Of a stretch of 40,946 nucleotides of DNA, positions 1 through 40,946 are shown in pieces. The translations under genes and the position numbers were made by a program. Numbering within the stretch: position 1 is the first letter of the stretch; each line of letters opens with the position of its first letter. This DNA is from Enterococcus phage vB_EfaS_785CS: sequence record MZ182246.1, one strand, 5' to 3'. The notes below the pieces were generated by a model. It was given only the letters and a program-made list of their open reading frames with translations, was not told the DNA's origin and ran no database searches.

Positions 1-110
1 ATTAGTTCCACCAAAAAATCGAGGGGGGGTCTAAAAAAATTTAGCTCTCCCTCCCATTTTATTTTGGTAGTCCCTCCCACTTTTTAAAATCTGATAGCCC
101 CAACCTACCT
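1..110. repeat. left-end part of the candidate cos region (C-rich inverted copies of the right-end G-rich repeats)
   Basis: See the 40780-40946 entry. Confidence 0.35.
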
Positions 111-11275: not shown

Positions 11276-11378
11276 ACAAAAAAAAAAGCCAACTCATAAG
11301 AGTTGACCTAAGATAGTTGAAGGTGGGAGGAATCACCTTTGCTATAAATATATTATAACATAAAATTAAAGTTTTGTG

Positions 11379-11407
11379 TTGACAAATAAACGTCAATATG
11401 ATAGAAT
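11379..11407 (+). promoter_or_regulatory. promoter TTGACA-N17-TGaTAGAAT
   Basis: ttgaca at 11379-11384, tagaat at 11402-11407. Confidence 0.45.
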
Positions 11408-11437
11408 AATATTATAAAACATTAGGAGGAATTAATT

Positions 11438-37326: not shown

Positions 37327-39048
37327 TTATACACCAAATCCAAATTTACCTTCTTCAATCAGTTCTTTAAAGCTAATATACTCATAATCAAAGTACATTG
37401 CTTCACTCATTGCATTAATTAAGGCATCTATAGGGTCAATTTTGTTACGATTCATAGCCTTTTCAATAGCTATATTGTCCGCAAACTCACGCATAATAGC
37501 ATTATATACCGCTCTAGTTAGTAGTGGGTTATCTGTTTGAATCACTTCACCCTTGATAATTGCATCACGTAAGTACTTTGTAGGTGCATTTAAATACTGG
37601 ATGCGCTGTGGTACTTCAATTAGTTTGTCTGGAAAGTCCTTGCTTAAGTTGATTACAGATGGTGTTGCTTGGTGTCCGTCATAGTAAATACCTTGTAGGT
37701 CTAAGTCATACTCTGTTATGAACTCTCTTATCCATTCGCACATATCTTCATGGTCTATCAAACCATCTGGTCGCTGACTGATGTTTACTAGTCCTAAGTT
37801 CTCATACTGTCTATACGGTATCTTATCTTTTATCTGTTTAGCTTCAATACCGCCCACAGAGGCTATAAAAGCGTGACTGTCAAGAAGTAGCTTGCGTTCC
37901 TCTGCAATAGGTATCACCCAACTAACAGCCGTCATATCGCCTGTACGTGCCAAATCCAGCCCTATATAAACTGGTCTACCTTTTATGTCATACGGTTGTG
38001 TTTGTTTAACAGCTTCCCAAGATTCTTTATCAATGAAACTGTCTTGTGATGATTGTACCCAGAAGTTCATCTCTTTAGTTAGCCAACCACTCATGTCACC
38101 CTTAGCCTTATACTCTGCTAATGAGTTAACCTTATGTTCGTACATTGTTTCATGTAACTGTGCATTCTCAAATAATGGGTTGCTCTTAATCCAGTTAGCT
38201 TCATCATCTACTTCACTTAGGCTATCCATTTCCCAACACAATGCAAGGTAAGCATCAGCTTCCACTTCCTCATTAAGTAGCTTAGTTATAAATGGGTATT
38301 CTATGCTGTGCATTGGTCCATTCAAGTTTTTGGTTGTTGTACTAATAATCAAAATTAAACCTTGTAATTGTTGTGACTGTGAACTTTCTAATACCTCAAT
38401 CATGGCTGTGCTTTTAGCTTCTCCATACTCATCAAGTACACCACATAGCACGTCTAGTCCGTCTAAGCTATCTGCATCACTTGATAGTGGCTTAACCGTT
38501 GATTCATCTTCTAAGTGTTCAATGTCTTTCTTATTAACTTTGGTTACTTTCCTTGTTCCATCACTTACTGCACGCAATGCCTTTAGCTGTGATTTTAACA
38601 TGTTGAATACAATACCTGCTTGGTCTTTGGTGTTGGCGGCGGCGACTATCTGACGGCTTGCCTGTGGATATTGACCTAATAGAAACTCGTATAGTGAGAT
38701 ACCAGCAACCAGAATAGATTTTCCGTTCTTACGTGCTAAACTGATATATACTTTTCTGAATCTGCGCATTCCGTTTTTCTTTTTGCGCCACCCATATATC
38801 ATTGCAATAATAAACTTCTGGAACTTAGCTAGCTTATTTGTTTTGCGTGTCTTTGGGTCTGGTAGCATTTCAATAAAAACCACTGGTTCATAGGTTTCTT
38901 TTGGGTCGTAATAATATGGATACTCTGGGTCTTTTGATTTTTCTAAGTCCTTTTCATGACGTCTAATTGCTTGCTTGATTTTATTACCTATTGGTATTTG
39001 ATTATCTCTTATATAATCAATATAATCTTTTACAAAATCTTGATTCAT
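37327..39048 (-). CDS. terL: terminase large subunit
   Basis: 573 aa with Terminase_1-like organisation (N-terminal ATPase, C-terminal nuclease). RBS gaggaggtatgcaaaATG. Confidence 0.85.
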   Translation of the reverse strand: MNQDFVKDYIDYIRDNQIPIGNKIKQAIRRHEKDLEKSKDPEYPYYYDPKETYEPVVFIEMLPDPKTRKTNKLAKFQKFIIAMIYGWRKKKNGMRRFRKVYISLARKNGKSILVAGISLYEFLLGQYPQASRQIVAAANTKDQAGIVFNMLKSQLKALRAVSDGTRKVTKVNKKDIEHLEDESTVKPLSSDADSLDGLDVLCGVLDEYGEAKSTAMIEVLESSQSQQLQGLILIISTTTKNLNGPMHSIEYPFITKLLNEEVEADAYLALCWEMDSLSEVDDEANWIKSNPLFENAQLHETMYEHKVNSLAEYKAKGDMSGWLTKEMNFWVQSSQDSFIDKESWEAVKQTQPYDIKGRPVYIGLDLARTGDMTAVSWVIPIAEERKLLLDSHAFIASVGGIEAKQIKDKIPYRQYENLGLVNISQRPDGLIDHEDMCEWIREFITEYDLDLQGIYYDGHQATPSVINLSKDFPDKLIEVPQRIQYLNAPTKYLRDAIIKGEVIQTDNPLLTRAVYNAIMREFADNIAIEKAMNRNKIDPIDALINAMSEAMYFDYEYISFKELIEEGKFGFGV

Positions 39049-39070
39049 TTTGCATACCTCCTCATTCCCT

Positions 39071-39101
39071 ATTATAGCACAAATAAAAAGACTTAGGTCA
39101 T
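39071..39101 (-). promoter_or_regulatory. candidate promoter for terL (TGcTATAAT extended -10)
   Basis: The minus strand reads ...catgacctaagtctttttatttgTGCTATAATagggaatgaggagg. Confidence 0.35.
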
Positions 39102-39139
39102 GAGTTTATCCAAAGGGGATAACAAACTTACCTAAGTCA
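39081..39139 (-). terminator. long hairpin terminator inside the terS-terL intergenic region
   Basis: gacttaggt ... acctaagtc outer stem with nested agttt/aaact and atcc/ggat stems, then a U5 run on the minus strand. Confidence 0.5.
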
Positions 39140-39468
39140 ATTGGTCGCACTGCAACCGTTCTTCAATGATTAAGTGTTGTTATGTGGTTGGCTGACCTTC
39201 CACATACGGACACCCCCACAACACTTAATAGAGTTTTGCTCACTTGGTTAAGGAGTTAAGAGCATTCCTTTTTGTTAGGTTTTCACACCTATGGTTGCGC
39301 TACTGTTAAGCATAGTAGTTGCTACTCCTAGTATTCTTTTTACTTATCTAAGCCCCTAGGCGGGAGCAAGCTACAACCCTAGCCCGCTAACATGTACGCA
39401 ACTATTGGAGTAGTTGCGACTGAATAACATAGAATATCTTTTACATAAATACATTATAACACAAAATG
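39140..39468 (-). ncRNA. candidate structured noncoding RNA (unclassified)
   Basis: No ORF. GC-enriched relative to the flanks. Multiple perfect helices (cgcaacta/tagttgcg, taagtgttgt/acaacactta enclosing atgtgg/ccacat, cggg/cccg, aggt/acct). Confidence 0.3.
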
Positions 39469-39942
39469 TTAACCTTGTGCGCGCATTTTAAGCAACTGAC
39501 CTAATGGGTCGTTTGATTCGTTCTCTATTTCTTTTGGCGCTACCAGTTTTAATCTTGAATTGATAGTTAAACCTAAATCGTTTGTTGCACTTTTGATTTG
39601 CTTACTATAACCCATCATTGCGGTTACTTTGGGGTTTAGCTTTCCGTCTGATGTCACTTCACCCTCAATAGAAACCTCTTCTGCTAATTTACTATATAAG
39701 TAAACGTAGTTACAGTAAGAAACCATGGTCTGCGAATCTAACTCACTTAATGGTAAATCTCCTACGAATGCACCTATACGTTCCCACTCTGCGTAGGCTC
39801 CTCTTAATAATCCCATTGGGAAGTATGAAAAATCTAATGGTTCGTAGTTGTATAGTTTTTCTTCTTCTTTTTGTTTTTTTAGTCGTTCTTCTTCAGTAAA
39901 ATGTTTGCTACTTGCGTTAAGGAGTTTTTTTGGGCGACTCAC
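39469..39942 (-). CDS. terS: terminase small subunit (P27-like)
   Basis: 157 aa. The N-terminus MSRPKK..SKHFTEEE is typical of P27-family TerS. It lies immediately upstream of the terL region. Confidence 0.65.
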   Translation of the reverse strand: MSRPKKLLNASSKHFTEEERLKKQKEEEKLYNYEPLDFSYFPMGLLRGAYAEWERIGAFVGDLPLSELDSQTMVSYCNYVYLYSKLAEEVSIEGEVTSDGKLNPKVTAMMGYSKQIKSATNDLGLTINSRLKLVAPKEIENESNDPLGQLLKMRAQG

Positions 39943-40455
39943 TTAATTCACCTCCTTATATTGGAATACGTACCCCCCAGTCTGTCTTAGTTTACCGTGT
40001 AAACAGTTACTGATATTACCTTGACTAAGACCTAACCTTCTTGCACATTCACCCATTGACGGATACTCATTGCACTCACCACTTGTAATATCTATTGCTT
40101 TGATTTTGGTACCTTGAGATATCATCATTCTTTCAGTACGTGTTCCGTGATTATTATTTTCTTTAGGTGTAACCCATTCCAGGTTAGAGACCATGTTGTT
40201 TACTTTGTCTTCATCAATATGATTCACTTGTGGTTTATTTTCAGGGTTTGGTATGAAAGCTTCTGCTACTAATCTGTGGATTTTAAAATGTTTAGGTTTG
40301 TTATGTTTACATAAACGAACATCCCTATAACCATCCTTATCTACACATGGCTTCAAAATCCGTTCTGACTTATATTTAAAGCTTTTAACCCTTCCTAAAT
40401 TACTAACCTGATAATCTCCTTCATACCCTTCAATATCTTTCCAAATTTCAATCAT
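39943..40455 (-). CDS. HNH homing endonuclease (NUMOD4 + HNH_3)
   Basis: WKDIEGYEGDYQVSNLGRVKS. IHRLVAEAFIPN..VNHIDEDKVNNMVSNLEW. Confidence 0.85.
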   Translation of the reverse strand: MIEIWKDIEGYEGDYQVSNLGRVKSFKYKSERILKPCVDKDGYRDVRLCKHNKPKHFKIHRLVAEAFIPNPENKPQVNHIDEDKVNNMVSNLEWVTPKENNNHGTRTERMMISQGTKIKAIDITSGECNEYPSMGECARRLGLSQGNISNCLHGKLRQTGGYVFQYKEVN

Positions 40456-40779: not shown

Positions 40780-40946
40780 ACCAGGTTTTGTGCTGTTTAT
40801 GAGGGAGGAAATTCGTATTAGTGAGATTATGAAACAATCTGTGAAACGGTTGATATTATTGAAAAGAAACCAGTTTTTAATCGTGTTTTACGAGGGAAAA
40901 AGGCTGTTTTGAAACTTCGTAAAGGGAGATTCGTTTAAGCGAAAGT
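40780..40946. repeat. G-rich direct repeats (GAGGGAGG, CGAGGGAAAAAGG, AAAGGGAGATTCG) near the right window end; candidate cos/terminase recognition region, continuing at 1-110
   Basis: Direct repeats gagggaggaaattcgtattagtgaga (40801-) and aaagggagattcgtttaagcgaaa (40921-). Inverted C-rich copies ctccctccca (47-56) and tccctccca (71-79), plus cgagggggggtc (20-31), at the left end. Confidence 0.4.

What the first reader, a model, noticed from the sequence alone, without database searches (positions are those of the whole stretch)
39049..39468. A 420-nt GC-enriched, hairpin-dense noncoding module between terS and terL, ending in its own terminator and promoter
Almost every other gene in this genome is separated from its neighbour by 0 to about 80 nt. 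Here, the two terminase genes, which are normally adjacent or overlapping, are separated by 420 nt with no ORF. The segment is visibly GC-richer than its flanks. It contains several perfect helices on the transcribed (minus) strand. These are cgcaacta-N6-tagttgcg; a 10-bp stem taagtgttgt/acaacactta enclosing a 6-bp atgtgg/ccacat stem; and cggg..cccg with ctagg/cctag partners in a crossing, pseudoknot-like order. It finishes with a long bulged hairpin plus a U-run, which is an intrinsic terminator. This is followed at once by a TGcTATAAT promoter and the terL RBS. Such a layout suggests a discrete, stable RNA of about 330 nt transcribed with HNH-terS and terminated before terL. It could be a regulatory or ribozyme-like RNA, an ORF-less intron remnant, or a packaging-related RNA or DNA recognition element. 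I cannot match it from memory to a known family; tRNA T-loop motifs are absent.
Basis: seen in the sequence. Interest (0 to 1): 0.8.

Follow-up and report, generated by a model that had tools for sequence, protein, structure and literature searches.

The report
Modular noncoding RNA cassette before terL
The 420-base gap between the two terminase genes of this Enterococcus phage most likely holds its own small transcription unit (promoter, a string of conserved RNA hairpins, terminator), an optional, shuffled noncoding insert found only in this phage lineage and of unknown function.

Summary
Window 39049-39468 (minus strand is sense) has no ORF of 30 aa or more. It is GC-rich for this genome (0.39, core 0.43, genome 0.35). 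It holds stable hairpins and ends in an invariant terminator, an extended -10 promoter and the terL RBS.

The region therefore reads as a self-contained unit of about 360 nt.

In 36 related Efquatrovirus spacers the local hairpins keep pairing through compensatory changes (21 pairs, against 9.8 in shuffles). G-U pairs outnumber A-C 135 to 30, which points to RNA of the sense strand. The noncoding modules are 89-98% conserved, against 73% at terL third codon positions.

It is not one compact fold. Long-range helices and the proposed pseudoknot are unsupported, and modules come and go (spacers of 172-712 nt, and about 95 nt in one sister-clade contig).

More distant terL relatives with a full-length terS upstream have overlapping terS/terL. 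The cos site lies at the window ends. No Rfam family matches, and I found no description in the literature I could search.

Best reading: an accessory, promoter-to-terminator "RNA moron" in a clade-specific variable slot. Its function is untested.

The parts
39453..39461 (-). P1: extended -10 promoter TGTTATAAT (context TTTTGTGTTATAATGTATTTA), 7 nt after the terS stop. The predicted start of the noncoding transcript is near 39445.
   Evidence: pattern hit, 18 in the window against 8.1 expected. Most minus-strand hits in the late region lie just upstream of an ORF start; at least 90% conserved in 36 spacers. The same unit recurs in tandem in relatives and in the sister clade. Transcription itself is inferred.
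39394..39420 (-). Module M1: hairpin GUCGCAACUA-CUCCAA-UAGUUGCG(U)AC.
   Evidence: -9.9 kcal/mol, z = -4.9. helix 3: 6 pairs with changes on both sides (for example CG:25/AU:7, CG:28/UA:7, AU:17/UA:16).
39342..39388 (-). Module M2: hairpin AGCGGGCUA-GGGUUG-UAGCUUGCU plus two small invariant hairpins.
   Evidence: z = -2.9. helix 4: CG to UA in 3 sequences, G-U to A-U or G-C in 8 cells at two pairs; the pseudoknot pairs break.
39232..39341 (-). The most sequence-conserved but weakly structured stretch. It comprises an A-rich linker, the hairpin CUACU-AUGCUUAAC-AGUAG, M3 (UAGG-UGUGAAAA-CCUA) and M4 (AAGGA..UCCUU / GCUC..GAGC). It is a candidate interaction surface.
   Evidence: 94% (M2-3) and 90% (M4) mean identity, against 73% at terL third codon positions; folding z only -0.7 to -0.9. 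helix 9: GC:21/AU:10; the A-U to C-G change in AAGGA/UCCUU.
39169..39229 (-). Module M5: long hairpin, with a 12-bp outer stem enclosing the AUGUGG/CCACAU stem and an asymmetric internal loop.
   Evidence: -23.2 kcal/mol, z = -3.1. helices 12 and 14: 6 pairs with changes on both sides, 98-100% of cells paired.
39143..39157 (-). Module M6: small hairpin GGUUGC-AGU-GCGACC.
   Evidence: z = -2.9. helix 15: 93.5% of cells paired, with one-sided changes only.
39081..39138 (-). Intrinsic terminator: 9-bp + 6-bp bulged hairpin GACUUAGGU...ACCUAAGUC followed by UUUUUAUUU.
   Evidence: -19.1 kcal/mol, z = -5.3; the outer stem is invariant in 35-36 spacers even where the inner part is replaced (L018, L046). 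It is duplicated in many relatives.
39049..39079 (-). P2: extended -10 promoter TGCTATAAT (39071-39079) and the RBS GAGGAGG (39057-39063) of terL.
   Evidence: and (invariant columns). Promoter activity is inferred.

Best explanation
The spacer is an accessory noncoding transcription unit, an RNA-only "moron". It sits in a variable slot that exists between terS and terL only in this lineage of Enterococcus siphophages.

**Layout**
- A host-type extended -10 promoter (P1) fires just after the terS stop.
- It makes an RNA of about 360 nt that is a string of independently folding hairpins separated by A-rich linkers.
- A strong intrinsic terminator ends this RNA and any read-through from HNH-terS.
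- A second extended -10 promoter (P2) then restarts transcription for terL and the head genes.

**What is shown**
- The hairpins are maintained by selection on the sense-strand RNA.
- Sequence is conserved at the level of terL first and second codon positions.
- The scaffold (P1, terminator, P2) is near-invariant.
- The cargo is modular and dispensable.

**What is inferred**
- That P1 and the terminator are used in vivo.
- That the RNA acts in trans, as a regulatory or decoy RNA binding a host or phage protein or RNA through its highly conserved, weakly structured middle part (39232-39341).
- That its turnover reflects host-specific adaptation and recombination, helped by the homing endonucleases that populate this neighbourhood.
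For: - **Identity.** The window is an LY0322-like Efquatrovirus.
- **Clade-specific slot.** terS-terL gaps of about 95-720 nt occur in Efquatrovirus and in the sister E. faecium-type clade (terL N-terminus roughly 63-70% identical). One 66%-identical fragment shows a 28-nt gap. Among more distant terL relatives, every locus with a full-length (150 aa or more) ORF upstream overlaps terL or abuts it within 8 nt.
- **Scaffold.** P1, the terminator, P2 and the RBS are at least 90% conserved or invariant in 36 spacers. The promoter motif is enriched in the genome and mostly precedes late genes.
- **RNA structure.** 21 pairs change on both sides, against 9.8 +/- 1.7 in shuffles and 3-8 when slid. 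90.8% of cells are paired. G-U 135 against A-C 30 marks the sense strand. Hairpin z-scores run from -2.9 to -5.3.
- **Selection.** Modules are 89-98% identical, against 73% at terL third positions and 93% at first and second positions.
- **Modularity and dispensability.** Spacers range from 172 to 712 nt with modules present or absent independently of terS type. Minimal versions are L001 and L046, and L053 in the sister clade.
- **The slot takes other inserts.** DELF1 carries an HNH gene there, and EF36P1 an 86-aa ORF with its own signals.
- **A second locus of the same design.** A short sRNA-like gene with the same promoter type lies at 11276-11437.
- **Noncoding.** No ORF of 30 aa or more.
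Against: - There is no transcript data, so both promoters and the terminator are predictions.
- No target or partner is known. Complementarity to the phage's own transcripts is no better than chance (longest 12 nt, against 11-18 nt in shuffles). Host targets could not be tested.
- High conservation could partly reflect recent spread by recombination or homing-endonuclease-driven gene conversion rather than selection. An I-HmuI-like HNH sits next to terS.
- Many compensatory changes are shared by related sequences, so independent events are fewer than the cell counts suggest.
- The invariant terminator stem has no explanation under a plain terminator model.
Confidence: 0.6

Rival explanations
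1. Purely cis-acting insulator and stabiliser. The terminator plus P2 uncouple terL and head-gene transcription from HNH-terS. The hairpins merely protect the 3' end of the terS message (or the 5' ends of processed RNAs) from exonucleases, with no trans function.
For: - The minimal forms of the slot are just hairpin(s) + terminator + promoter (L001, L046, L053).
- The terminator-P2 block is the most conserved part (98.5%).
- The terminator would also stop read-through from terS (sequence).
Against: - A dedicated conserved promoter P1 directly in front of the hairpins is unnecessary for a 3'-UTR role.
- Exonuclease blocks need structure, not sequence. Yet the best-conserved part (94% and 90%) is the least structured (z -0.7 to -0.9).
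Confidence: 0.2
2. DNA-level recombination or homing hot spot. The mosaic and the high identity are by-products of gene conversion by the neighbouring homing endonucleases, and the hairpins have no function of their own.
For: - An I-HmuI-like HNH lies next to terS.
- Other HNH genes lie next to terS or inside the slot in relatives.
- terS alleles of 63%, 72% and 85-100% identity are combined with similar spacers.
Against: - Compensatory changes and the 135:30 excess of G-U over A-C pairs show selection on a single-stranded sense-strand molecule.
- Spacer modules are more conserved than both flanking genes.
Confidence: 0.1
3. One compact functional RNA (ribozyme, riboswitch-like leader of terL, or ORF-less intron remnant).
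For: - Dense structure, with the whole-region fold at z = -2.6.
- A possible small pseudoknot in M4 (AAGGA/UCCUU crossing GCUC/GAGC).
- The sister clade has a loop-loop paired core in the same slot.
Against: - No Rfam hit even at E = 10.
- Long-range helices are only 72% and 53% paired, and the proposed pseudoknot is broken.
- Modules are lost singly without loss of the phage.
- P2 lies downstream of the terminator, so terL does not depend on read-through.
Confidence: 0.05
4. Packaging element: a cos or pac recognition site, or a phi29-pRNA-like packaging RNA.
For: Its position next to the terminase genes.
Against: - The window starts ATTAGTT... and ends ...GAGATTCGTTTAAGCGAAAG(T). These match the experimentally mapped IME-EF4 termini with a 9-nt 3' overhang (PMC4445525). 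cosN is therefore about 1.5 kb upstream.
- Close relatives lack nearly all of the spacer.
- The phage has a canonical TerS/TerL system.
Confidence: 0.03
5. It encodes micro-peptides, for example MLNSSATIGVKT from the ATG at about 39314 with AGGAG 11 nt upstream.
For: The 12-codon frame and its stop are conserved in all spacers that carry module M2-3.
Against: - The few changes there include a compensatory pair in the surrounding hairpin (UA to CG in L039, helix 7).
- The SD spacing is long.
- No ORF of 30 aa or more is present.
- ORFs annotated here in other records differ from phage to phage.
Confidence: 0.03

Closest known systems
Phage "morons" (promoter-gene-terminator inserts between late genes, as defined for lambdoid/HK97-like phages; from my own knowledge)
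   Same: An insert between two otherwise adjacent or overlapping late genes. It is bracketed by its own promoter and terminator, present in some relatives and absent in others, and differs in composition from its flanks.
   Different: The cargo here is noncoding RNA hairpins rather than a protein gene. The host phage is strictly lytic. The slot also carries the promoter of the downstream essential gene.
Trans-acting small RNAs of Firmicutes and phage- or prophage-encoded sRNAs (for example DicF, and the anti-sRNAs of EHEC prophages; from my own knowledge)
   Same: A stand-alone sigma-A type promoter, several stem-loops, A/U-rich linkers and an intrinsic terminator. There is a conserved, weakly structured segment that could serve as a seed.
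   Different: At about 360 nt it is long for an sRNA. No target is identified. The window's copy lacks the C-rich motif seen at the 5' end in many relatives and in the second sRNA-like gene at 11276-11437.
Large phage-associated RNAs of Lactobacillales (ROOL, GOLLD; Rfam RF03087, RF01998)
   Same: Phage-borne, several hundred nt, function unknown, found in phages of lactic-acid-type Gram-positives.
   Different: No match to either covariance model at E up to 10. There is no conserved long-range architecture. The element is much shorter and is built of exchangeable hairpins.
Candidate structured RNAs upstream of large-terminase genes catalogued by Fremin et al. 2023 (PMC10690425)
   Same: That survey reports 14 candidate structured RNAs consistently upstream of a putative large terminase.
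phi29 pRNA
   Same: A phage RNA encoded near packaging functions. The sister-clade core has complementary loops as pRNA does.
   Different: pRNA is essential and belongs to protein-primed phages that lack TerS. Here the RNA is dispensable and the phage packages from a cos site with TerS/TerL.

Membership tests
Intrinsic (Rho-independent) terminator | A stable G+C-containing hairpin immediately followed by a U-run on the transcribed strand. | tested here: met
   39090-39138 folds at -19.1 kcal/mol, z = -5.3, followed by UUUUUAUUU. It is invariant in relatives. The simple scan missed it because of the internal loops.
Intrinsic (Rho-independent) terminator | Transcripts end there in vivo. | not testable with these tools
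   No transcript data are available.
Sigma-70/sigma-A extended -10 promoter | TGnTATAAT upstream of the transcribed unit. | tested here: met
   TGTTATAAT at 39453-39461 and TGCTATAAT at 39071-39079. The motif is enriched (18 against 8.1 expected) and conserved.
Sigma-70/sigma-A extended -10 promoter | Mapped transcription start. | not testable with these tools
   No transcript data are available.
Any Rfam 15 family (including ROOL, GOLLD, HEARO, group I/II introns, self-cleaving ribozymes, riboswitches, 6S, tmRNA) | A score at or above the family's gathering threshold, or at least a low E-value, against its covariance model. | tested here: not met
   0 hits at gathering thresholds on the whole window. 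Only two chance-level hits (E = 1.6 and 9.9), both outside the spacer, at E up to 10. 0 hits at E up to 1 in 12 related loci. No tRNA or tmRNA.
Group I/II intron or intron remnant | Interrupts a gene whose exons join into one reading frame, with a conserved catalytic core. | tested here: not met
   terS and terL are complete, separately recognised genes with their own stop, RBS and start. In more distant relatives with a full-length terS upstream, the two genes overlap as separate ORFs. No intron model hit.
cos/pac packaging site | Coincides with the mature genome ends or the terminase cleavage site. | tested here: not met
   The window termini match the mapped IME-EF4 cohesive ends (PMC4445525). 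The finding lies about 1.5 kb away.
Phage moron | An insert with its own promoter and terminator between genes that are adjacent in relatives, with presence/absence polymorphism. | tested here: met
   Predicted P1 and terminator. terS/terL overlap in more distant relatives that have a full-length terS upstream. Near-empty slots in L001, L046 and L053.
Phage moron | Carries a protein-coding gene that benefits the host or phage. | tested here: not met
   No ORF of 30 aa or more. Constraint is on RNA pairing. It works like a moron but is not a classical one.
Structured RNA under selection | Base pairs kept through compensatory substitutions beyond controls, with strand-specific G-U tolerance. | tested here: met
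   Searches (21 against 9.8 in shuffles, 3-8 when slid; G-U 135, A-C 30), for local hairpins only.
Single compact (tertiary-folded) RNA | Conserved long-range helices or pseudoknots linking the modules. | tested here: not met
Helices 1 and 2 are 72% and 53% paired. Modules are lost independently.
Trans-acting base-pairing sRNA | An identifiable complementary target. | tested here: inconclusive
   Against the phage's own genome the longest complement is 12 nt, within the shuffle range of 11-18 nt. The host transcriptome was not available.

The most novel reading that the evidence does not exclude
The terS-terL slot of Enterococcus siphophages may be a hypervariable "RNA island". Phages would swap families of small structured RNAs there to counter host defences or to tune virion assembly. 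These families include the window's M2-M5 set and the sister clade's loop-loop (kissing or multimerising) core. That would make them a new class of phage accessory RNAs, the RNA counterpart of protein anti-defence or moron loci. My evidence shows selection, modularity and clade restriction. It does not exclude such a role, and it does not show it either.
Probability: 0.15. Interest if true: 0.8.

Novelty: new member of a known kind. Interest (0 to 1): 0.5.

Why it matters
- Efquatroviruses are among the E. faecalis phages most often isolated and characterised as antibacterial candidates. Most of the 40 best-matching deposited genomes leave this stretch unannotated, and about a quarter call short hypothetical ORFs in it.
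- Recognising it as a conserved, selected, probably transcribed RNA cassette corrects annotation.
- It gives a defined target for deletion or engineering. The slot naturally tolerates inserts with their own promoter and terminator.
- It adds an uncatalogued set of structured RNA motifs absent from Rfam.
- If the RNAs affect host range or defence evasion, they would bear on the choice of therapeutic phages.

Tried and rejected
- **Rfam searches.** Gathering and permissive thresholds on the window, the region and 12 related loci gave nothing. ARAGORN found no tRNA or tmRNA.
- **Origin in bacterial genomes.** The 24-nt M2 motif is absent from 185,579 species genomes. A 19-nt M4 motif gave 8 hits in unrelated taxa, about the number expected by chance by my estimate, and none in Enterococcus.
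- **Target search.** Complementarity within the phage genome is at chance level.
- **Paralogues of the modules elsewhere in the window.** Only the promoter unit recurs, at 11333-11380.
- **Whole-alignment RNAalifold.** The gappy mosaic alignment recovered only a few helices. I therefore projected the window's own local hairpins onto the alignment and counted pairs.
- **Literature.** Searches for a described RNA in Efquatrovirus or between terminase genes found nothing specific. The supplement of the viral structured-RNA survey is not held.
- **Rejected after testing.** A cos site, an intron remnant, the cggg/ctagg pseudoknot, and any Rfam-catalogued ribozyme or riboswitch.
- **Hammerhead.** By eye, an optional module in relatives contains CUGAUG but lacks the rest of the core. 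It is not present in the window.

Full report
**What the window is**

The region matches Enterococcus phage LY0322 and five other records at 99.5-100% identity. The surrounding 5 kb matches at 99.4-99.8%. The genus is Efquatrovirus.

The window starts with ATTAGTT... and ends with ...GAGATTCGTTTAAGCGAAAG(T). These match the experimentally mapped termini of the genus prototype IME-EF4, which has 9-nt 3' cohesive ends (PMC4445525). The window is therefore a whole genome opened at cos.

On the minus strand the order is:
- cos;
- an I-HmuI-like homing endonuclease (39943-40455; NUMOD4, HNH_3 and I-HmuI NUMOD-like domains);
- terS (39469-39942; Terminase_4);
- the 420-nt spacer;
- terL (37327-39048; TerL_ATPase + TerL_nuclease), then portal and the head genes.

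**Checking the observation**

- The spacer has no ORF of 30 aa or more on either strand.
- It is the longest spacer between co-directional genes in the LY0322 annotation.
- Its GC is 0.393 and its core is 0.43, against 0.348 for the genome. Most other long spacers are 0.25-0.37; one 125-nt spacer reaches 0.42.
- The sense strand folds at -119.3 kcal/mol, z = -2.6.
- Individual elements are individually significant:

| Element | Window coordinates | z-score |
|---|---|---|
| M1 (cgcaacta hairpin) | 39394-39420 | -4.9 |
| M2 hairpin | 39365-39388 | -2.9 |
| M5 (long nested hairpin) | 39169-39229 | -3.1 |
| M6 | 39143-39157 | -2.9 |
| Terminator (-19.1 kcal/mol, then UUUUUAUUU) | 39090-39138 | -5.3 |

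TGCTATAAT at 39071-39079 and the RBS follow the terminator.

TGnTAYAAT occurs 18 times in the genome against 8.1 +/- 2.8 expected. Most minus-strand copies in the late region lie just upstream of an ORF start.

**Relatives**

I collected 35 further Efquatrovirus spacers. I also collected 17 from a sister clade of E. faecium, E. hirae and E. gallinarum phages (IME-EFm1, IME-EFm5, 9184, dArtagnan and others). Their terL N-terminus is roughly 63-70% identical.

- Spacer length ranges from 172 to 712 nt in Efquatrovirus and from about 95 to 785 nt in the sister clade.
- One 66%-identical metagenome fragment shows a 28-nt gap after a short ORF.
- Among more distant terL relatives, every locus with a full-length (150 aa or more) ORF upstream overlaps terL by 4-17 nt or abuts it within 8 nt. 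These include a Listeria-labelled phage and many gut and food metagenome contigs.
- The spacer is therefore a derived feature of this Enterococcus phage lineage.

**Anatomy from the alignment**

The scaffold is near-invariant:
- P1 (TTGTGnTATAATrTATTTA) directly after terS;
- the terminator GACTTAGG...CCTAAGTC + T5ATTT;
- P2 and the RBS.

Between P1 and the terminator lies a variable string of hairpin modules.
- The window carries M1, M2-M3, M4, M5 and M6.
- It lacks two modules common in relatives: a hairpin before M1, and a GGGCUAUC...GGUAGC hairpin after M3.
- Other phages lack M2-M3 (for example L007, L017, L021), or carry another module in place of M4-M5 (L018, L022, L040).
- L001 (AL2-like) and L046 lack almost everything.
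- Many relatives carry a second terminator plus a third promoter. Some carry an extra promoter-plus-hairpin unit at the 5' end.
- Two of these small units are shared with the sister clade.
- Module content does not follow the terS allele. terS identity is 63%, 72% or 85-100% with similar spacers.

**Is it RNA structure?**

I projected the window's local hairpins onto the 36-sequence alignment.
- 90.8% of cells pair.
- 21 pairs change on both sides, against 9.8 +/- 1.7 in column shuffles and 3-8 when the partner is slid by 1-3 columns.
- Support is concentrated in M1 (6 pairs), the M2 hairpin, M3 (GC:21, AU:10) and M5 (6 pairs).
- The two long-range helices of the MFE fold are only 72% and 53% paired, so they are unsupported.
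- In the supported helices there are 135 G-U cells and 30 A-C cells. This asymmetry is expected only if the sense strand folds as a single strand.
The plain M2 hairpin absorbs them.

**Is it under selection?**

Identity to the window, averaged over relatives:

| Segment | Mean identity |
|---|---|
| M2-M3 | 94% |
| M4 | 90% |
| M5 | 89% |
| Terminator + P2 | 98.5% |
| terL third codon positions | 73% |
| terL first and second codon positions | 93% |

The best-conserved stretch (39232-39341) is thermodynamically unremarkable, with z from -0.7 to -0.9. That pattern fits a sequence-specific interaction surface rather than a structural block. Gene conversion driven by homing endonucleases could inflate identity. 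The compensatory changes and the strand bias argue for genuine constraint.

**What it is not**

- No Rfam family matches in the window, the region at E up to 10, or 12 related loci. There is no tRNA or tmRNA.
- The conserved M2 motif is absent from 185,579 bacterial and archaeal species genomes. It occurs only in these phages. A 19-mer from M4 gives only chance-level hits. The modules are therefore phage-specific rather than borrowed from the host.
- cos is at the window ends.
- Complementarity to the phage's own transcripts is at chance level.
- I found no description of this RNA in the searchable literature. A survey of viral structured RNAs mentions 14 unnamed candidates upstream of large-terminase genes (PMC10690425).

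**Interpretation**

The simplest account of all the facts is an RNA-only moron. It is a promoter-to-terminator noncoding cassette sitting in a lineage-specific variable slot. Its fixed scaffold also terminates HNH-terS transcription and re-initiates at terL.

The cargo is dispensable and exchangeable, yet each module is constrained. This suggests accessory, probably trans-acting RNAs, regulatory or decoy. A cis role in transcript insulation or stability is the main rival.

The slot accepts other inserts: an HNH gene in DELF1, and an 86-aa ORF with its own signals in EF36P1. The genome contains a second short sRNA-like gene with the same promoter type at 11276-11437. Both fit this picture.

**Shown:** noncoding status, scaffold conservation, local RNA structure under selection, strand, modularity, clade restriction, and distance from cos.

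**Inferred:** promoter and terminator use, a single primary transcript of about 360 nt, and action in trans.

**Verdict**

This is a real and previously unannotated feature. It is not in Rfam, and I found no description of it in the literature I could search. It belongs to a familiar kind, a phage-encoded noncoding RNA or moron, rather than being a new mechanism. Interest is moderate (0.5). It would be higher if the RNAs prove to be anti-defence or assembly factors.

Noticed in passing
window 11276-11437, minus strand: A second sRNA-like gene lies between two plus-strand replication-module genes. It has the same promoter type (TGTTATAAT at 11352-11360) and an RNA of about 75 nt beginning AGCAAAGGUGAUUCCUCCCACCUU. 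That RNA has a C-rich, anti-Shine-Dalgarno-like loop. It ends in the terminator CCAACUCUUAUGAGUUGG followed by ten U. Its 5' part resembles the small AGCAAAUGA... units found in the sister-clade spacers.
   Followed up: partly
L027 1908-2395, and L029-L038, L050-L054, L090 (the terS-terL spacers of E. faecium-type phages): The same slot in the sister clade holds a different conserved core of about 100 nt. It comprises a GCCA/UGGC hairpin, a GUGUG/CACAC hairpin and a 12-bp hairpin. The loops of the last two are complementary (CCCUAC/GUAGGG), giving a kissing-loop or pseudoknot topology. 10 pairs change on both sides, against 0-2 when slid. No Rfam hit. The core is duplicated in tandem in KEN21 (L030) and absent from L053.
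   Followed up: partly
window 39943-40455 (minus strand): The HNH gene next to terS is an I-HmuI-like free-standing homing endonuclease (NUMOD4 + HNH_3 + I-HmuI NUMOD-like). It is not the terminase-associated HNH. Another HNH-annotated gene, a candidate for that role, lies on the other side of cos (LY0322 232-603). Relatives carry different HNH genes next to terS or inside the spacer, which probably drives the mosaicism.
   Followed up: partly
window 1-30 and 40920-40946: The window is a complete genome opened exactly at the cohesive-end site. Both ends are homologous to the mapped IME-EF4 termini (PMC4445525).
   Followed up: yes
Family-A spacers, for example L005 2975-3580 and L013 1296-2007: The loop motif UGGGUAG occurs 20 times in 16 of 27 Efquatrovirus spacers, in the loops of three different modules. 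It occurs once in the rest of the 41-kb genome and not at all in the window's own spacer. It may be a shared recognition motif.
   Followed up: no
L027 1908-1940, L029 729-830 and other sister-clade spacers; weaker in window 39455-39480: A palindrome, ACACAAAA-N6-UUUUGUGU, overlaps the -17 to -10 part of the P1-type promoters. It could be an operator for a dimeric regulator or a weak hairpin at the end of terS.
   Followed up: no
window 39314-39352 and 39394-39420: The 9-nt string GCAACUACU occurs both in the 5' arm of M1 and in the 5' arm of the CUACU/AGUAG hairpin. The M1 3' arm could therefore pair alternatively with the downstream copy. Relatives with a different M1 sequence do not keep this option, so it is probably a duplication trace.
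   Followed up: partly
L033 1549-2088 (DELF1) and L038 1110-1370 (EF36P1): Protein-coding inserts lie inside the same slot: an HNH endonuclease directly upstream of terL, and an 86-aa ORF with its own promoter, RBS and terminator. The slot is therefore a general landing pad.
   Followed up: no
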